A DNA stretch of 35,754 nucleotides from Candidatus Egerieousia equi (GTDB lineage: Bacteria; Bacteroidota; Bacteroidia; Bacteroidales; UBA932), in assembly GCA_018065035.1 (NCBI GenBank), contig JAGHUC010000068.1, positions 1 through 35,754 on the forward strand, given 5' to 3'. The number at the start of each line of letters is the position of its first letter. Position 1 is the stretch's first letter. Made by a program: the position numbers and the translations under genes. Below are positions 17,137-35,630 of this stretch, one piece after another. The notes beneath the pieces were generated by a model. It was not told the origin of the DNA and made no database searches. It saw only the letters and a list, made by a program, of their open reading frames with translations.

Positions 17137-17214
17137 GCGGCAGTCACTTCATCTGAAAAATTCCGCCTTTCCGTGGCGGAATTTTTCATATTCCAGTGAC
17201 CTGCCGTTTTTTTT
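17137..17214 (+). repeat. nested palindromic element, family A (copy 2) ending in T8 run
   Basis: The same outer arms as copy 1. The apical stem is ttCCGCC/GGCGGaa instead of aaGCGCC/GGCGCtt. It begins 11 nt after the SIMPL stop and is followed by TTTTTTTT. Confidence 0.85.
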
Positions 17215-17301: not shown

Positions 17302-17907
17302 ATGGAATGGTGGAATTCATTGAGCCTCCCTATGCAGATACTCTGGGGAGTGACTTTGGTAGCTTCTTTAATCTTTGTAATTCAGAGCATTATGACCTTT
17401 ATCGGAGCCGATGCCGATTCTTCGGATTTTTCCACAGGCGATAGTGATCTCAGCGGGGCCGATGGTGTGGATTCCGATTCTGACAGCGGTTCCAACCTGC
17501 TAACATTCAGGAACCTTGTGAATTTCTGCATGGGTTTCGGCTGGTCCGCAATCCTGCTACAGCAGTCAATAGAGTCAGTGGCTGTCCTTATGATTGTGGC
17601 GGTTGCCATTGGCGTTGGTCTGGTTGCGGCAGTGATTTACCTTTTCAAGTGGATGAACTCCATGCAGCAGTCAGGTAACATCGATCTCTATCAGTGTGCA
17701 AGCGGCTGCGAGGGCAGCGTGTATCTCAGAATTCCCGCAGAGCGCAAAGGCGAGGGAAAGGTTCAGATTACCATCAACGGTTGTGTGAGGGAGTATGACG
17801 CTGTCACCGACGGGCCTGCAATACCTACCGGAGCCTGCATAAAGGTGGTTGAGGTTGTGAACAACAGCACGGTCCTTGTTGAGGAGGCCGGCGCCATGAT
17901 AATTTGA
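17302..17907 (+). CDS. NfeD-like (YuaF-type) membrane protein, partner of flotillin
   Basis: About 201 aa from ATG 17302 (the ORF track starts at an upstream TTG). Two TM helices, an Asp/Ser-rich linker and a C-terminal OB-fold-like beta domain (GKVQITINGCVREYDAV...IKVVEVVNNSTVLVEE). It sits immediately upstream of an SPFH gene. Confidence 0.7.
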   Translation: MEWWNSLSLPMQILWGVTLVASLIFVIQSIMTFIGADADSSDFSTGDSDLSGADGVDSDSDSGSNLLTFRNLVNFCMGFGWSAILLQQSIESVAVLMIVAVAIGVGLVAAVIYLFKWMNSMQQSGNIDLYQCASGCEGSVYLRIPAERKGEGKVQITINGCVREYDAVTDGPAIPTGACIKVVEVVNNSTVLVEEAGAMII

Positions 17908-17953: not shown

Positions 17954-19378
17954 ATGTACATCTATCTTATTGTTATCATTGTAGTGGTTCTTTTCGTGAG
18001 CCTTTCAGCCATCATGGCAAGGTACAAGAGATGCCCTTCAGACAAGATTCTTGTAATCTACGGAAAAACAGGAAGAAACAAACAGGGTGGCATTTCATCT
18101 GCAAAGTGCGTGCATGGAGGCGCTTCATTCATCTGGCCTGTGTTCCAGAGCTATGCGTTCATGGACCTCACACCTATCTCTATAGAGTGCAACCTTACGA
18201 ATGCGCTTTCAAAACAGAATATCCGAGTTGACGTTCCTTGCCGCTTCACCGTTGCAATTTCAACCGAGCCGGACAACATGACCAATGCCGCAGAGCGCCT
18301 TCTGGGGCTCTCAACCGAGGATATACGCAATATTGCAACGGATATTCTCTTCGGTCAGCTCCGTCTTGTGATTGCAACAATGGACATTGAGGAAATCAAC
18401 TCAGACCGTGACAAGTTCCTTGCAAACGTAAGCACTAACGTTGAGGCCGAGCTCAGAAAAATCGGTCTGAAGCTTATCAACGTGAACGTTACCGATATAC
18501 GTGATGAGTCCGGTTACCTCGAGGCTCTTGGAAAGGAGGCTGCGGCAAAGGCTATCAATGACGCCAAGAAGAGCGTTGCCGAGCAGAACCGCTACGGTGA
18601 GATTGGTAAGGCCGAGGCCGACAGGGACAAGGATATCAGAATTGCCGAAACATCAAGGGATACACGTATCAAGACCGCCGATGCCAATGCAAAGGCCGTT
18701 GAAGGTGAGAACAATTCAAAGATAGCAATCGCCCAGTCAGACGCACTGCGCCGTGAAAGACAGGCGGAGGCCGAGCGTCAGGCGGTAGCCGCTGAGAAGG
18801 TTCAGGCCGCAAAGGCGCTTGAGGAGGCTTACAAATCAGAGCGTGACGCCGAACTTGCACGTGCCGAGAGGGAGAAAGCCACACAGATGGCAAACATTGT
18901 GGTTGCAGCACAGATTGAGAAGGAGAAGGCAATCATTGAGGCCGAGGCTCTTGCAGAGCAGTTCAGAAGGAAGGCTCAGGGTGAAGCTGACGCCATTTAC
19001 GCAAAGATGGAGGCTCAGGCCCGCGGTACTCTCGAGATTCTCTCAAAACAGGCCGACGGTTTCAACAGAATGGTTCAGGCCGCTGCAAACGATCCTCAGC
19101 AGGCAGTGCTCATGATGATAGCGGACCGCTTGCCGGAGCTTGTGAAGACTCAGGTGGAGGCAGTTAAGGGCATCAACATAGACAAGGTCACAGTCTGGGA
19201 CAATGGCTCAGGCAAGGATGGAAAGACCGCAACCGCAAACTTCGTTTCAGGTCTCATGCAGTCAGTTCCACCATTGGAGGACCTTTTCAAGATGGCCGGA
19301 ATGAACCTCCCTTCATATCTCAAGGGCAAGGACACTGAAAACGCTGAAGTCGTAGAAAACACTGAATCAGCAGAATGA
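17954..19378 (+). CDS. flotillin-like SPFH/band-7 protein
   Basis: 474 aa with an N-terminal TM helix, an SPFH domain and a long Ala/Glu-rich coiled coil (EAERQAVAAEKVQAAKALEEAYK...). This is the classic NfeD-flotillin gene pair. Confidence 0.85.
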   Translation: MYIYLIVIIVVVLFVSLSAIMARYKRCPSDKILVIYGKTGRNKQGGISSAKCVHGGASFIWPVFQSYAFMDLTPISIECNLTNALSKQNIRVDVPCRFTVAISTEPDNMTNAAERLLGLSTEDIRNIATDILFGQLRLVIATMDIEEINSDRDKFLANVSTNVEAELRKIGLKLINVNVTDIRDESGYLEALGKEAAAKAINDAKKSVAEQNRYGEIGKAEADRDKDIRIAETSRDTRIKTADANAKAVEGENNSKIAIAQSDALRRERQAEAERQAVAAEKVQAAKALEEAYKSERDAELARAEREKATQMANIVVAAQIEKEKAIIEAEALAEQFRRKAQGEADAIYAKMEAQARGTLEILSKQADGFNRMVQAAANDPQQAVLMMIADRLPELVKTQVEAVKGINIDKVTVWDNGSGKDGKTATANFVSGLMQSVPPLEDLFKMAGMNLPSYLKGKDTENAEVVENTESAE

Positions 19379-19407
19379 TTTTCCACCGGCGACAGTAATT
19401 CAAAATT

Positions 19408-19538
19408 TATAGAACTCAAGTTTCGCAAAGCGAAACACCCTTTTGAGGCATTTATGCCGATGAAAAAGTCCCTCTCTTTTGGAGAGGGATATAGGGAGAG
19501 GGTAAAACACCAGGAAAGTGCGAAACTTGAGTTATAGA
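19408..19538. repeat. about 130-bp cassette bounded by 13-20 bp inverted repeats (core CTCAAGTTTCGCA / TGCGAAACTTGAG)
   Basis: A perfect 13-bp inverted repeat sits at 19415-19427 and 19519-19531, extendable to about 20 bp. The interior contains small hairpins (GTTTCGCaaaGCGAAAC; CCCTCTCttttggAGAGGG) and a 27-codon ORF. Confidence 0.6.
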
Positions 19539-19551
19539 ATATCACCAGAGT

Positions 19552-19761
19552 ATGGTAATAGTAAACATTGATGTAATGCTCGCCCGCAGGAAGATGTCCT
19601 GCGGGGAGCTTGCACAAAAGATAGGCATAACTCCCGCAAACCTTTCCATCCTGAAGACCGGAAAGGCAAAGGCAATACGCTTTTCAACAATGGATGCTAT
19701 ATGCAAGGCCCTGGATTGCCAGCCATCGGACATCTTCGAATGGCGGCCTGAGGAAACTTGA
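19552..19761 (+). CDS. XRE-family helix-turn-helix transcriptional regulator (Cro/CI-type)
   Basis: 69 aa. NIDVMLARRKMSCGELAQKIGITPANLSILKTGKAKAIRFSTMDAICKALDCQPSDIFEW fits the small HTH_XRE pattern. Confidence 0.8.
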   Translation: MVIVNIDVMLARRKMSCGELAQKIGITPANLSILKTGKAKAIRFSTMDAICKALDCQPSDIFEWRPEET

Positions 19762-19871
19762 TTGAAAAAATATAGTTCTATGTATTGCAAGGTAGTATAA
19801 ATTATATATCTTTGTGCGAGAAAAACAGATTTATCAATTTACAACCAATAAATAATTTCAGACTTTTGATT

Positions 19872-22736
19872 ATGAAAAAGTTATTTTGTGTTCTTGCTTT
19901 TGTGCTCGGCATGGTAGCCAGCGCATCTGCACAGTTCCTCAATCCACAGCAGCCGGTTCCTAACGACACCACAGTCGTAAGCGGCAAGTTGGACAACGGA
20001 CTTACCTATTACATCAAACACAATGAGAAACCGGCTCAGAGAGCTGATTTCTATATCGTATCAAATGTTGGTTCAATCCAGCAGGACAGCACACAGGGCG
20101 GTCTTGCCCACTTCCTTGAGCACATGTGCTTCAACGGCCTCAAGGATTTCCCTGACAAGGAACTGTTCACATACCTCGAGGGCATAGGTGCAAAGTTCGG
20201 TGCCAACATAAATGCAGGAACAGGCATAGAGACAACATCTTACATGCTCAACAACATTCCTGTTACAAGAACAGGCATAGTTGATTCCTGCCTGCTCATT
20301 CTTCAGAACTATGGTGCATTCGTAACCTGTGACCCTAAGGCCATTGACGATGAGCGCGGAGTTATCATTGAGGAGAAGAGGACAAGGAATACAGCAAGCT
20401 GGAGATACCAGACCTTCATGCTGAACCATCTTGCCAAGGGAAGCAAATATGCTCTTGCTCTCGATGAACTCATTGGCAGCGAGGAGCAGCTGAAAACTTT
20501 CAAGCCACAGACACTCGTCGATTACTATCATACCTGGTATCGTCCGGACCTTCAGGCCATAATAGTTGTAGGAGACGTTGACGTGAACTATGTTGAGAAC
20601 CAGATAAAGAAGACTTTCAACGTACTCCCTAAAAGGGAGAACCCTAAACCAAAGGAGTTTGTTAAAATCCCTGGAAACGAGCAACCGATTACTGGCGTGT
20701 TCACAGACAAGGAGTTCCCTCAGACCCAGGTGACAATGTTTTTCAAACAGGACCCTATACCTGTTGAGTACAGGAATCTTGGAATGGTTGTTCTTGTGGA
20801 TCTTTACAAGGATGTGGCCAGCACAATCCTCAACGAAAGATTCAACGACATTGCCTCTAAACCTGATGCGCCTTTCCTCAATGCCGGAGCAGGCTTCAAT
20901 TCAATGTTCGTAACACTTGATATGCTTTCGCTCAGCGTGCAGACCAAGGAAGATGCCATGGTTTCAGGCTTCCAGGCAGCTTTGAACGAACTCGAGAGAG
21001 CAAAGCGTTTCGGCTTCACAAACGCTGAGTTCGAGAGAGCCAAGAGCAATGTTCTCAAACGTTATGAGCGCGCCGCAGAGAATGAGGCAGGCCGTGAGAA
21101 CGGTACAATTGTTTACGACTATATCAACGCCTTTACAAAAGGTTATGCATACCCATCTCCAAGCAAGGAGTATGAGATTGTGAAGGGCTATTTCGAGGTT
21201 GGCGCAGTAACACTTCCTGCAATTAACCAGCTTATGGCTCAGGCAATCGACTACAAGGATGTGGTTATTCTTGCAGCAGCTCCTGAGAAAGAGGGCATCA
21301 AACTTCCGGGCGAGGATGAACTCGTTGCTACTGTTGCCACAGCACAGGCTGCAGAACTTACAGCACCTGTTGAGGAGAACGCAAACGAGCCTCTCGTTGA
21401 TGCAGCTGCTCTCAAGGGCTCCAAGGTAAAGAAAGTGTCCGAGGACAAGTTCGGCACACAGAAGGTCGTACTTGCCAACGGTGTTGAAATATACCTCAAG
21501 AAGACAGATTTCAAGAAGGACGAGGTGATGTTCAAGATTTATGTCGAGGGTGGAAAATCCGTTCTTTCAGACGATATGCTTCCAGTTTGGTCCGATGACC
21601 TTGGCAACGGCAGCATCTTCATTGCATACGCCGGACTTTCAAAGTTCCCGCAGCCTGCTCTTGAAAAGGCTCTTGCCGGTAAGGCCGCTCACGTATCACC
21701 ATTCGTAAGCAATCTCTCAAACGGCATTTCAGGCTCCGGTTCACCAAAGGACTTCGAGACTATGATGCAGCTTGCATACCTGTATTTCGTTGATCCAAGA
21801 TTCAATGCCGATGAAATCAACGTTGGCGTGAACATGGTCAAGCAGATGCTTCCTAACATTCTCAAGGACCCTAACACAATCTTTGGAATAGAATTCCAGA
21901 AGACATTGTTCGGCAACAGCCCAAGAAGACCTCAGCTGGACGAGAACTTCATGGACAAGGCAACTGTTGAGAAATTCGAGCAGTCTTACAGACAGCTGTT
22001 CAGCAATGCAAAGAATGCAAAGATGTTCATTGTAGGTAATGTTGAGCTTTCAGAAATCCAGCCAATGCTCGAGAAATACATAGGTTCCCTCCCAATGGGC
22101 AAGAAGGCTGTCAAGAAGACAGACAACGTTGCAATGCCTGTAAAGGGCAAGGTTGAGAATGTGTTCAAAGCACAGATGACAGCTCCTAAGACAACAGTAG
22201 GTCTGGTTTACAATGGAAACATTGAGTGGACTCTCAAGAATGCCGTTGCCATTTCAGCCTTGAAGAATATCCTTGACCTCACTTACACAAAGACCATCCG
22301 TGAGGAAGAGGGCGGTACATACGGTGTAGGCGTAGGCTCACAGCTTTCAGTATATCCTGAGTCACGCGCTATTGTCATCATGCAGTTCGATACGGATCCT
22401 GCAAAGGCCGACAAACTCTGCGCAAAGACAATCGAGGGCATTGAGGACATTGCTGCAAACGGTGTTTGCCAGGATTACATTGACAAGACACGTGAGACAA
22501 TGCTCAAGAGCGTTCCTGAGCAGCAGATTACCAACGGCTACTGGCTCGGCGTGATAGACAGCTACGTTACCGAGGGTCACGATGTTGATACAGAGAAACT
22601 TGATACCATCAAGGAAGTTGTTACTTCAGACAATATCAAGGCTCTTGCAAACGCTATCCTTTCACAGGGTAACTTCGCAAAGATTATCATGAGTCCTGAG
22701 GCAGCTCCTGAGGCTGCTCCTGCAGAGGCAAAATAA
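19872..22736 (+). CDS. M16-family zinc metallopeptidase (pitrilysin/insulinase-like), secreted
   Basis: Signal peptide MKKLFCVLAFVLGMVASASA from ATG 19872 (the ORF track extends to 19785). Inverted zinc motif HFLEHMCFNG and downstream NAGTGIETTSY. About 954 aa with tandem M16 halves. TAtcTTTG box at 19807-19814. Confidence 0.85.
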   Translation: MKKLFCVLAFVLGMVASASAQFLNPQQPVPNDTTVVSGKLDNGLTYYIKHNEKPAQRADFYIVSNVGSIQQDSTQGGLAHFLEHMCFNGLKDFPDKELFTYLEGIGAKFGANINAGTGIETTSYMLNNIPVTRTGIVDSCLLILQNYGAFVTCDPKAIDDERGVIIEEKRTRNTASWRYQTFMLNHLAKGSKYALALDELIGSEEQLKTFKPQTLVDYYHTWYRPDLQAIIVVGDVDVNYVENQIKKTFNVLPKRENPKPKEFVKIPGNEQPITGVFTDKEFPQTQVTMFFKQDPIPVEYRNLGMVVLVDLYKDVASTILNERFNDIASKPDAPFLNAGAGFNSMFVTLDMLSLSVQTKEDAMVSGFQAALNELERAKRFGFTNAEFERAKSNVLKRYERAAENEAGRENGTIVYDYINAFTKGYAYPSPSKEYEIVKGYFEVGAVTLPAINQLMAQAIDYKDVVILAAAPEKEGIKLPGEDELVATVATAQAAELTAPVEENANEPLVDAAALKGSKVKKVSEDKFGTQKVVLANGVEIYLKKTDFKKDEVMFKIYVEGGKSVLSDDMLPVWSDDLGNGSIFIAYAGLSKFPQPALEKALAGKAAHVSPFVSNLSNGISGSGSPKDFETMMQLAYLYFVDPRFNADEINVGVNMVKQMLPNILKDPNTIFGIEFQKTLFGNSPRRPQLDENFMDKATVEKFEQSYRQLFSNAKNAKMFIVGNVELSEIQPMLEKYIGSLPMGKKAVKKTDNVAMPVKGKVENVFKAQMTAPKTTVGLVYNGNIEWTLKNAVAISALKNILDLTYTKTIREEEGGTYGVGVGSQLSVYPESRAIVIMQFDTDPAKADKLCAKTIEGIEDIAANGVCQDYIDKTRETMLKSVPEQQITNGYWLGVIDSYVTEGHDVDTEKLDTIKEVVTSDNIKALANAILSQGNFAKIIMSPEAAPEAAPAEAK

Positions 22737-22799: not shown

Positions 22800-22870
22800 G
22801 CGGCAGTCACTTCATCTGAAAAATTCCGCCTTTCCGGGGCGGAATTTTTTAGATTCCAGTGACCTGCCGC
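22800..22870 (+). repeat. nested palindromic element, family A (copy 3) plus upstream partial duplicate at 22757-22785
   Basis: The same arms and apical stem as copy 2. It begins about 60 nt after the M16 stop. Its 5' flank cttccgcttgTTGCGGCAG is duplicated. Confidence 0.85.
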
Positions 22871-25123: not shown

Positions 25124-25145
25124 TATTTCACACGGTTTCATATTT

Positions 25146-25335
25146 TCGAGCAGGTTTGGCCACCCAACCTGCTCGTTTTGCCGGAAAACTTGGGATTCGA
25201 GCAGGTTTGACCCCTCAACCTGCTCGTTTTGCCTGAAAACTTGGGATTCGAGCAGGTTTGGCCCCTCAACCTGCTCGTTTTGCCTGAAAACTTGGGATTC
25301 GAGCAGGTTTGGCCCCCCAACCTGCTCGTTTTGCC
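25146..25335 (+). repeat. 51-bp tandem repeat, about 3.7 units, each unit a GAGCAGGTTTG...CAACCTGCTCG hairpin followed by TTTTG
   Basis: Unit: cgagcaggtttggcccctcaacctgctcgttttgcctgaaaacttgggatt. The stems are conserved and the loops vary (ccaccc/cccctc/cccccc). There are no unique spacers. It lies between the tcdA stop and the metG promoter. Confidence 0.9.
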
Positions 25336-35281: not shown

Positions 35282-35409
35282 TAGCGGTGGCCGGTTGCTA
35301 TTATTCCCTCTGGAACCGTTTGGCGAGTTTGTGTCTTTGGTGTCTTCTGGCGTCCTCTGTTGATTTCTGGTGAGCTGGTGCCTTCCGGCATCCTCTGTTG
35401 CCCTTTGGT

Positions 35410-35630
35410 GAGCGCAAACCCCTGATACTGGTAGGGTTTGCGCTCAGTGGATTTTGCAACTATCTGATAATCAATATTGTTTTTCTGGTAAGTGTGCTCA
35501 AACCCCACCACTTTAAGGGGTTTGCGCTCAGTGGATTTTGTAACCGTCTGATAATCAATAGTGCTTTTCTGGCAAGTGATCTCAAACCCCTCGCACAAAC
35601 GAGGTTTGCGCTCAGTTGGTATCTGAAATA
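35410..35630. repeat. 84-bp tandem repeat (about 2.6 units), each unit with a 10-12 bp hairpin GAGCGCAAACCC...GGGTTTGCGCTC
   Basis: Units begin at 35410, 35494 and 35578 and are about 85% identical. The upstream 35330-35400 region carries additional short direct repeats (tcctctgttg...tggtgagc). ORFs are open on both strands. Confidence 0.8.

What the first reader, a model, noticed from the sequence alone, without database searches (positions are those of the whole stretch)
19379..19551. Inverted-repeat-bounded 130-bp cassette between flotillin and the XRE regulator
A perfect 13-bp inverted repeat (CTCAAGTTTCGCA at 19415-19427; TGCGAAACTTGAG at 19519-19531), extendable to about 20 bp, encloses about 90 nt. 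The interior has hairpins GTTTCGCaaaGCGAAAC and CCCTCTCttttggAGAGGG and a 27-codon ORF (MPMKKSLSFGEGYRERVKHQESAKLEL, 19454-19537). It ends 14 nt before the XRE regulator start. It could be a MITE, a long-range RNA stem forming a cis-regulatory leader or attenuator for the XRE plus M16 peptidase genes, or an operator pair for the XRE protein. The decamer AAGTTTCGCA recurs at 13651 in another intergenic region.
Basis: seen in the sequence. Interest (0 to 1): 0.5.

Follow-up and report, generated by a model that had tools for sequence, protein, structure and literature searches.

The report
Small mobile DNA insert (MITE)
The inverted-repeat "cassette" in front of the XRE regulator gene is a 117-bp non-coding jumping-DNA element (a MITE). 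It is present in some strains of this horse-gut Bacteroidales species and absent in others, so it is not a built-in regulatory signal of the gene.

Summary
There is a perfect 13-bp inverted repeat (19415-19427 / 19519-19531) enclosing 91 nt, and it folds strongly.

It is a miniature inverted-repeat transposable element (MITE) of 117 bp (19415-19531), flanked by an 8-bp target-site duplication, TTATAGAA.

- **Presence/absence.** Ten other contigs encode the identical XRE protein. Seven have a clean empty site. Three carry a different 66-bp element with the same ends at the same nucleotide.
- **Copies elsewhere.** Elements with the same 13-bp tips occur at 61 distinct sites. They lie in Bacteroidales, Cytophagia, Cloacimonadota and Desulfobacterota genomes.
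- **Footprint.** 28 of those sites have exact 6-8 bp duplications, against 0.8 expected by chance. The duplications are 90% A+T. 56 of 57 copies in the genome-scan loci are not spanned by an ORF of 150 codons or more.

The tips, duplication length and AT-rich targets match the published signature of the ISPepr1 subgroup of IS4 insertion sequences. Sampled relatives of that transposase family share the TTCG(C) core and 6-7 bp duplications. No autonomous parent with exactly these tips was found.

The operator, leader-RNA and small-ORF readings are not supported. The kind is ordinary, but this family appears undescribed. Three independent insertions at one nucleotide are notable.

The parts
19415..19531 (.). 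117-bp MITE (non-autonomous transposon), intact at both ends
   Evidence: blastn alignments to the empty-site contigs break exactly at 19414|19415 and 19531|19532. Presence/absence is shown in alignment A1. Elements with the same tips occur at 61 sites.
19407..19414 (.). Left copy of the 8-bp target-site duplication TTATAGAA
   Evidence: Direct repeat D10. Empty alleles carry a single copy. The locus coordinates of the two blastn pieces overlap by 8 nt, 2980-2987.
19532..19539 (.). Right copy of the 8-bp target-site duplication TTATAGAA
19415..19427 (+). Left terminal inverted repeat CTCAAGTTTCGCA (presumed transposase-binding tip)
   Evidence: The same 13-mer forms the tip in 59 loci from several phyla. 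It matches all 8 specified positions of the published ISPepr1-subgroup end consensus YT-AA-YTT---A (PMC2266710).
19519..19531 (+). Right terminal inverted repeat TGCGAAACTTGAG
19420..19436 (.). Left-end palindrome GTTTCGC-AAA-GCGAAAC: the inner part of the left tip followed by an inverted partial copy of the tip
   Evidence: The equivalent palindrome GTTTCGCATAAATGCGAAAC is present in the longer relative in L036.
19469..19489 (-). Internal 8-bp-stem hairpin, terminator-like on the minus strand (followed by CTTTTTC)
   Evidence: There is no evidence of function here, since both neighbouring genes are on the + strand.
19454..19537 (+). 27-codon ORF MPMKKSLSFGEGYRERVKHQESAKLEL, judged not to be a gene
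   Evidence: It runs from the element's interior across its right end into the duplicated target. It is absent from all ten other alleles. Only its first 5 codons are shared with the L036 relative.
19552..19761 (+). Downstream gene: 69-aa Cro/C1-type HTH (XRE) regulator, 20 nt after the element
   Evidence: Pfam HTH_26, E = 4e-23. The protein is identical in contigs with and without the element.
17954..19378 (+). Upstream gene: flotillin (Band_7/SPFH). Its stop codon lies 36 nt before the element.
   Evidence: Pfam Band_7, E = 1.9e-28.
13656..13685 (+). Probable degenerate relic of the same element family (left tip abutting a decayed right tip)
   Evidence: TTTAAGTTTCGCAAGTTCGTGAAATTTGAC. The 12-mer AAGTTTCGCAAG equals positions 4-15 of the 66-bp subfamily. 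About 0.004 such matches are expected per window (own arithmetic: 2 x 35754 / 4^12).
17898..17907 (.). Second polymorphic insertion site of the family, empty in this window. In five other contigs a 66-bp copy sits inside the stop codon of the 201-aa gene.
   Evidence: Alignment A2.

Best explanation
The cassette is a 117-bp MITE. It is a non-coding, non-autonomous cut-and-paste transposon defined only by its 13-bp terminal inverted repeats (CTCAAGTTTCGCA).

Inferred mechanism: a DDE transposase supplied in trans binds the two tips and inserts the element at an AT-rich target with cuts staggered by 7-8 bp. Repair of the gaps then produces the flanking TTATAGAA duplication. The transposase is most likely from an IS4-family, ISPepr1-subgroup-like insertion sequence.

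The window comes from 'Candidatus Egerieousia equi', a Bacteroidales bacterium from horse gut. Here the element landed in the 49-nt spacer between the flotillin and XRE genes, 20 nt before the XRE start codon. It is an insertion polymorphism, not part of the XRE gene's native control region.

Shown: the element boundaries, the duplication, presence/absence among strains, multiple copies, and an AT-rich, largely ORF-free target preference.

Inferred: the transposase family, from the end signature and duplication length, with no parent element found. Any effect on XRE expression is also inferred. If the element is transcribed, the tips would form a 14-20 bp RNA stem just upstream of the start codon.

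The confidence given (0.9) is for the MITE verdict. The transposase-family assignment alone is held at about 0.6.
For: - **Empty versus filled sites.** Ten contigs encode the identical 69-aa XRE protein. Seven have a 43-49 nt spacer with one copy of the target. Three have a 66-bp element with the same tips at the same position. The window has the 117-bp element (alignment A1).
- **Boundaries.** blastn breakpoints fall exactly at the element ends, with an 8-nt overlap that equals the duplication.
- **Copies elsewhere.** A genome-collection scan for tip-gap-tip gave 59 loci in Bacteroidales, Cytophagia/Cyclobacteriaceae, Cloacimonadota and Desulfobacterota. One Desulfobacterales MAG supplied about 24 of these loci. 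Interiors are unrelated between lineages and occur in both orientations.
- **Duplications.** Of 61 distinct sites, 28 have exact 6-8 bp duplications (19 of 7 bp, 5 of 6 bp, 4 of 8 bp). Re-pairing the flanks at random gives 0.8.
- **Targets.** Duplications are 90% A+T against a 55% background. Position 1 is T in 15 of 19 and position 7 is A in 17 of 19. 56 of 57 copies in the genome-scan loci are not spanned by an ORF of 150 codons or more.
- **Second site.** A second polymorphic copy lies 1.5 kb upstream in the same locus.
- **Longer relative.** A longer element in Ca. Egerieisoma shares 28 + 27 nt at 100% identity with the window element's interior.
- **Family signature.** PMC2266710, Table 1, gives the ISPepr1 subgroup ends as YT-AA-YTT---A, direct repeats of 7-8 bp and a preference for AT-rich targets. 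The tip matches 8 of 8 specified positions.
- **Sampled relatives.** I sampled ISs encoding ISAsp3-like transposases (ISAsp3 is classed in the ISPepr1 subgroup in PMC3542288). Their tips are CAATACCTTCGCCAAA, CAATATGTTCGCCAAA and CAATACTTCGGTAAA, sharing C1, A5 and the TTCG(C) core with this element. Their duplications are 6-7 bp: TTTCAAT, GGGCGG, CCATTA and AACTATG.
Against: - No autonomous element bounded by CTCAAGTTTCGCA was found. It was absent from the fetched loci, from viral contigs and from the sampled transposase relatives, all of which have CAATA tips.
- Two metagenome scans returned nothing.
- About half of the 61 sites lack a clean duplication. The second site in this locus has none: TAATTTAA versus CGGTTGGA.
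- Only one copy of the 117-bp form itself was seen.
- The transposase-family assignment therefore rests on an end consensus, the duplication length and partial tip similarity. It does not rest on a matched parent.
Confidence: 0.9

Rival explanations
1. The element is a MITE that has been co-opted. By inserting 20 nt upstream of the XRE start it changes XRE expression, and that is why the site was hit repeatedly. Possible routes are an RNA stem in the 5' leader, separation from the upstream promoter, or a weak outward promoter in the tip.
For: - The same nucleotide position carries three different elements. These are the 117-bp form, a 66-bp form with duplication TTATAGAA (L010), and a 66-bp form with duplication TTATAGTA (L006, L009).
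- The two 66-bp alleles are only 83% identical, whereas alleles of the second site are 97% identical.
- The A/T difference is present in both duplication copies and also in empty alleles. This argues for independent insertions.
- The tip-tip stem is stable as RNA, at -49.7 kcal/mol.
Against: - Recurrent hits are equally explained by a target hot spot. The transposase family has a strong AT-rich, T...A target preference.
- Most strains with the identical XRE protein lack any insert.
- The sigma-70-type promoter/terminator scan finds nothing on the + strand here. That scan does not cover Bacteroidota-type promoters, and I saw no convincing match to the Bacteroidota -7 box TAnnTTTG by eye.
- No expression data are available.
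Confidence: 0.15
2. The element is a MITE, but it is mobilised by a transposase of a different IS family (for example another family with about 7-bp duplications), not IS4/ISPepr1.
For: - No parent with these tips was found.
- Every sampled ISPepr1-type IS has CAATA tips rather than CTCAAG tips.
Against: - The tip matches 8 of 8 positions of the published ISPepr1 end consensus. My own arithmetic puts the chance of this at about 6e-5 per 13-mer.
- ISPepr1 is the only entry in that table with 7-8 bp repeats and an AT-rich preference.
- The TTCGC core lies at the same distance from the tip as in the sampled relatives.
Confidence: 0.25
3. The repeat is a cis-regulatory RNA leader or attenuator for the XRE (and M16 peptidase) genes, formed by long-range pairing of the two arms.
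For: The region folds strongly (z = -6.0). The inner half of the left arm (GTTTCGC, 19420-19426) can pair either with the adjacent GCGAAAC or with the distal one.
Against: - The repeat is absent from 7 of 10 contigs with the identical XRE protein.
- It is replaced by an element with an unrelated interior in 3 others.
- There is no Rfam match.
- The minus strand folds equally well.
- Family members next to unrelated genes fold just as strongly.
- A 107-nt gap separates XRE from the likely M16 start.
Confidence: 0.03
4. The two arms are an operator pair bound by the XRE protein.
For: The repeat is close to the XRE start, and the sequence is palindromic.
Against: - The same XRE protein occurs without the repeat in most strains.
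- The same 13-bp tips occur at 59 loci in several phyla with no XRE homologue nearby (tblastn).
- The arms are bounded by a target-site duplication.
Confidence: 0.02

Closest known systems
IS4-family insertion sequences of the ISPepr1 subgroup (ISPepr1, ISAsp3, ISTeha8; De Palmenaer et al. 2008, PMC2266710)
   Same: The end signature YT-AA-YTT---A is matched at 8 of 8 positions. Direct repeats are 7-8 bp, against 6-8 bp with a mode of 7 here. Targets are AT-rich. Sampled relatives share the TTCG(C) core of the tip and give 6-7 bp duplications.
   Different: This element is 117 bp with no transposase gene, against 1.45-1.75 kb. The sampled ISs start CAATA rather than CTCAAG. No autonomous copy with these tips was found.
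MIC231 / IS231-derived mobile insertion cassettes of Bacillus cereus (own knowledge, not checked here)
   Same: Non-autonomous elements bounded by the ends of an IS4-family IS and mobilised in trans by its transposase.
   Different: They belong to a different subgroup (IS231, with CAT ends and 10-12 bp repeats). They are usually larger and may carry passenger genes. Their hosts are Firmicutes.
Correia elements (CREE) of Neisseria, and other bacterial MITEs such as RUP and ERIC (own knowledge; general context in PMC11602168 and PMC10969869)
   Same: They are short, intergenic and bounded by terminal inverted repeats. They come in full-length and internally deleted size classes and are polymorphic between strains. 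When co-transcribed they form long RNA hairpins next to genes.
   Different: Correia elements have 26-bp repeats and a TA duplication, and are confined to one genus. Here the 13-bp tips are identical across several phyla while the interiors are unrelated. The survey in PMC11602168 found 97.4% of prokaryotic MITEs to be genus-specific.
REP/BIME palindromic elements mobilised by RAYT (own knowledge)
   Same: Small intergenic palindromes present in many copies.
   Different: REPs have no target-site duplication and no long terminal inverted repeats. This element has both.

Membership tests
MITE (miniature inverted-repeat transposable element) | Terminal inverted repeats at both ends | tested here: met
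   A perfect 13-bp repeat. The same tips occur in all family copies.
MITE (miniature inverted-repeat transposable element) | Target-site duplication directly flanking the element | tested here: met
   TTATAGAA on both sides, with a single copy in empty alleles. 28 of 61 sites have exact 6-8 bp duplications, against 0.8 expected.
MITE (miniature inverted-repeat transposable element) | Small size and no transposase gene | tested here: met
   The element is 117 bp. Its only ORF has 27 codons and is not conserved. The family ranges from 57 to 117 bp, plus one composite of about 337 bp.
MITE (miniature inverted-repeat transposable element) | Multiple copies at unrelated sites, with presence/absence polymorphism | tested here: met
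   61 distinct sites. Two sites are polymorphic in this species. Only one copy of the 117-bp form itself was seen, plus a longer relative in L036.
IS4 family, ISPepr1 subgroup (as the mobilising element) | End consensus YT-AA-YTT---A | tested here: met
   CTCAAGTTTCGCA matches all 8 specified positions of Table 1 in PMC2266710.
IS4 family, ISPepr1 subgroup (as the mobilising element) | Direct repeats of 7-8 bp and an AT-rich target preference | tested here: met
   The modal length is 7 bp, with a range of 6-8. Duplications are 90% A+T against 55% background.
IS4 family, ISPepr1 subgroup (as the mobilising element) | An autonomous partner with the same tips encoding a DDE/YREK transposase | tested here: inconclusive
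   Not found. The sampled relatives have related but different tips, CAATAyyTTCGCC or CAATAsTTCGkTAAA.
IS4 family, ISPepr1 subgroup (as the mobilising element) | Mobilisation of the element by that transposase | not testable with these tools
   This needs a transposition assay.
cis-regulatory RNA leader (riboswitch or attenuator) | Conserved with the regulated gene across strains and species | tested here: not met
   Absent in 7 of 10 contigs with the identical XRE protein, and the interior is replaced in 3 others.
cis-regulatory RNA leader (riboswitch or attenuator) | Match to a described RNA family | tested here: not met
   No Rfam hit at the gathering threshold. Only chance-level hits appear at E <= 10.
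Operator of the adjacent XRE repressor | Present wherever the regulator is present, and associated with that regulator in other genomes | tested here: not met
   absent in most strains; no XRE homologue in the 59 other loci.
REP/BIME | No target-site duplication; a short imperfect palindrome | tested here: not met
   A target-site duplication is present.

The most novel reading that the evidence does not exclude
One lineage of ISPepr1-like transposases recognises the invariant 13-bp tip CTCAAGTTTCGCA. On this reading it has spread, or its tip has been conserved, across at least three phyla: Bacteroidota, Desulfobacterota and Cloacimonadota. It mobilises cassettes with completely unrelated interiors. 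In this horse-gut species the nucleotide 20 nt upstream of the XRE start has been hit three separate times. The repeated hits would then reflect selection, with the insert rewiring XRE expression, and not merely a target hot spot.
Probability: 0.12. Interest if true: 0.5.

Novelty: new member of a known kind. Interest (0 to 1): 0.3.

Why it matters
**Annotation.** The repeat should be labelled as a mobile element insertion, not as an operator, a riboswitch or a small gene. The XRE promoter region should be read from the empty allele.

**Mobile-DNA biology.** The family has a 13-bp tip that is identical across phyla, joined to unrelated interiors. A large survey found bacterial MITEs to be overwhelmingly genus-specific (PMC11602168). 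A tip-defined, cross-phylum family would therefore be a useful marker for tracing one transposase lineage and for typing strains in gut metagenomes. Three independent insertions at one nucleotide also point to an unusually precise target hot spot.

Tried and rejected
**Regulatory and coding readings**
1. Rfam gave nothing, at the gathering threshold on the whole window or at E <= 10 on the region. It also gave nothing on the longer L036 relative.
2. The sigma-70 promoter/terminator scan found only a terminator-like hairpin on the minus strand, inside the element.

**Search for the parent IS**
3. Tip pairs 0.13-4 kb apart in the fetched loci enclose housekeeping genes, not transposases.
4. The only ORF shared at high identity between loci is a metallophosphatase.
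5. tblastn of the ISAsp3 transposase against all fetched loci gave nothing.
6. blastn of the element against the plasmid collection gave only chance matches.
7. A viral-contig scan for CTCAAGTTTCGCAAG gave 104 single, chance-level hits with no partner tip and no transposase.
8. Two metagenome scans, for the window element's left end and for the 66-bp subfamily's end, both returned 0.
9. Pelobacter propionicus plasmid pPRO1 carries ISPepr2, ISPepr5 and ISPepr6 but not ISPepr1.
10. Anabaena sp. 90 plasmids pANA01 and pANA03 have no such IS. pANA02 has ISAsp3.
11. Protein searches from ISAsp3 and from a Parabacteroides relative reached many ISs. Every IS I could inspect has CAATA-type tips.

**Literature**
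12. A full-text search for the tip sequence returned only unrelated eukaryotic primer matches.

Full report
**Observation.** The window has CTCAAGTTTCGCA at 19415-19427 and its exact reverse complement at 19519-19531, 91 nt apart. An arm-gap-arm pattern of this kind is expected 0.00 times in shuffles of the window. As RNA the region folds at -49.7 kcal/mol (z = -6.0) on the + strand and -48.4 kcal/mol (z = -5.9) on the - strand. The apparent extension of the repeat to about 20 nt is really a direct repeat, TTATAGAA, at 19407-14 and 19532-39. That repeat is nearly palindromic (D10 and I1).

**Setting.** The element lies between a flotillin gene (17954-19378, Band_7) and a 69-aa Cro/C1-type HTH gene (19552-19761, HTH_26). 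An M16 peptidase follows, with a likely start near 19869. The XRE protein and the M16 peptidase are recorded from a 35,754-bp contig of a MAG named 'Candidatus Egerieousia equi', in Bacteroidales.

**Decisive evidence: empty and filled sites.** An exact-sequence look-up of the XRE protein returned ten other contigs of the same locus.
- In seven of them (L001-L005, L007, L008) the flotillin-XRE spacer is 43-49 nt and holds one copy of the target.
- In three (L006, L009, L010) a 66-bp element sits at the same nucleotide. It has the same tips (CTCAAGTTTyGCAAG...CTTGCGAAACTTGwG) and an unrelated interior, and it is flanked by TTATAGTA or TTATAGAA.
- The window carries the 117-bp form (alignment A1).

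blastn of the window against these contigs (93-98% identity) breaks exactly at 19414|19415 and 19531|19532. The two pieces overlap by 8 nt in the empty contigs, which is the signature of an 8-bp target-site duplication.

A second polymorphic 66-bp copy lies between the 201-aa gene and flotillin in five contigs, inserted in the stop codon. That site is empty in the window.

**A family of copies.** A scan of one genome per prokaryotic species for tip-(31-91 nt)-tip returned 59 loci.
- Bacteroidales hosts include Cryptobacteroides, Alistipes equi, Muribaculaceae, Egerieisoma, Aphodosoma and Paludibacteraceae.
- Other hosts are Cytophagia/Cyclobacteriaceae, Cloacimonadota and several Desulfobacterota.
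- About 24 of the loci come from one Desulfobacterales MAG.

Elements are 57-117 bp and occur in both orientations. Within a genome they form nested-deletion series. Interiors are unrelated between lineages, while the 13-bp tips are identical.

Of 61 distinct sites, 28 have exact flanking duplications of 6-8 bp (19 of 7 bp, 5 of 6 bp, 4 of 8 bp). Re-pairing flanks at random gives 0.8, and several more sites are one mismatch off. Duplications are 90% A+T against a 55% background, with T at position 1 and A at position 7. 56 of 57 copies in the genome-scan loci are not spanned by an ORF of 150 codons or more.

The window's own 117-bp form is not an orphan. A composite element of about 337 bp in Ca. 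Egerieisoma (L036 3993-4325) shares 28 and 27 nt at 100% identity with its interior. It has the same left-end palindrome and is flanked by TAATATG/TGATATG. The window element is therefore a deletion derivative of a longer subfamily shared between genera.

A probable 30-bp relic of the family is at 13656-13685.

**Which transposase.** Table 1 of De Palmenaer et al. 2008 (PMC2266710) gives the following for the ISPepr1 subgroup of the IS4 family: ends YT-AA-YTT---A, direct repeats of 7-8 bp, size 1500-1600 bp, and a preference for AT-rich targets. CTCAAGTTTCGCA matches all eight specified positions. The duplication length and target composition match too.

To test this independently I took ISAsp3, which is classed as IS4 ssgr ISPepr1 in PMC3542288. 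I found it on Anabaena sp. 90 plasmid pANA02 and sampled relatives of its transposase. The tips of these ISs are:
- CAATACCTTCGCCAAA
- CAATATGTTCGCCAAA
- CAATACTTCGGTAAA / CAATAGTTCGTTAA (Bacteroidales)
- TCAATACTGTAGCC (ISAsp3)

Where flanks are intact, their duplications are TTTCAAT (7), GGGCGG (6), CCATTA (6) and AACTATG (7). They share C1, A5 and the TTCG(C) core at the same distance from the tip, and the same duplication length, with the element studied here. None has the CTCAAG tip.

No autonomous partner was found anywhere I could look. I therefore hold the family assignment at about 0.6 and the MITE verdict at about 0.9.

**What it is not.** An operator or leader RNA for XRE should accompany the gene. 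It does not, because most contigs with the identical XRE protein lack it. None of the 59 other loci has an XRE homologue.

There is no Rfam match. Both strands fold equally well, and all family members fold strongly (z from -5.8 to -12), because the tips pair. The fold statistic therefore says nothing about RNA function.

The 27-codon ORF crosses the element boundary and ends in the duplicated target. It is absent from the other alleles.

**Local consequences (inferred).** In the empty allele the XRE start is 49 nt from the flotillin stop, with no terminator called. The element puts 125 extra nt there, ending 20 nt before the ATG. If it is transcribed, a 14-20 bp stem would form. I found no convincing promoter in or at the edge of the element. 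Effects on XRE expression are possible but untested.

**An unusual detail.** The same nucleotide has been used at least three times.
- The two 66-bp alleles at this site are only 83% identical to each other. That is no closer than copies at other loci or in other genera (83-90%). Alleles of the second site are 97% identical.
- Their duplications differ (TTATAGAA versus TTATAGTA) in both copies, matching an A/T polymorphism that is also present in empty alleles.
- L010 is 99.6% identical to the window immediately to the right of the element, yet carries the 66-bp form.

A precise target hot spot is the simplest reading. Selection for an effect on XRE cannot be excluded.

**Unexplained.**
- The second site shows no clean duplication: TAATTTAA versus CGGTTGGA.
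- Its flanks, ATGATAATTTAA and GTTGGATC, recur around the relic at 13656.

**Verdict.** This is a real feature of an ordinary kind: a MITE insertion polymorphism. As far as I could check, it belongs to an undescribed family, defined by its tips and found across phyla, that is probably mobilised by ISPepr1-like IS4 transposases.

Noticed in passing
window 13656-13685: TTTAAGTTTCGCAAGTTCGTGAAATTTGAC looks like a decayed copy of the same element family, with the left tip abutting a degenerate right tip. Its flanks, ATGATAATTTAA and GTTGGATC, are the same as the flanks of the filled second site in L002. I cannot explain this.
   Followed up: partly
window 17898-17907; L002/L003/L007 1407-1472, L005 1413-1478, L006 1333-1398: A second polymorphic 66-bp copy of the family sits inside the stop codon of the 201-aa gene upstream of flotillin, changing TGA to TAA. 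The site is empty in the window. No clean target-site duplication is visible (TAATTTAA versus CGGTTGGA).
   Followed up: partly
L036 3993-4325: A composite element of about 337 bp in Ca. Egerieisoma sp. Its left part and an internal segment are 100% identical to 28 + 27 nt of the window element's interior. Its right end is a 66-bp-type element. It holds several GC-rich hairpins and a 34-codon basic ORF that starts MPMKK like the window's ORF. There is no Rfam match.
   Followed up: partly
window 12257-12337 and 25145-25335: Tandem 51-nt units, each containing the hairpin GAGCAGGTTTG..CAACCTGCTC. There are 2 and 4 units in two different intergenic regions. This is another repeat family.
   Followed up: no
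window 16151-16191, 17151-17191, 22814-22854: Three near-identical hairpins with 17-bp stems (ATCTGAAAAATTCCGCC N7 GGCGGAATTTTTCAGAT), each just after a gene end. Those after the SIMPL and M16 genes lie in a repeat of about 87 bp at 93% identity.
   Followed up: no
window 35409-35601: Two 84-nt direct repeats (81% identical) overlap a 38-nt inverted repeat at the end of the window.
   Followed up: no
window 12421-12540: Another inverted-repeat-bounded stretch: 26-nt arms, 81% complementary, enclosing 68 nt. It may be a different small mobile element.
   Followed up: no
L010 versus window 18023-19982: A mosaic haplotype. It is 99.6% identical to the window to the right of the element but only 87.6% identical across flotillin to the left, which suggests recombination near the insertion site.
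   Followed up: no
L198 (NZ_OY725802.1, Parabacteroides distasonis 'plasmid 57', 1477 bp circular): This 'plasmid' record is just one IS4-type insertion sequence closed on itself (tips CAATACTTCGGTAAA / CAATAGTTCGTTAAA). It is probably an assembly artefact or an excised IS circle. Related transposases form very large clusters in gut metagenomes, with up to 14,902 members.
   Followed up: partly
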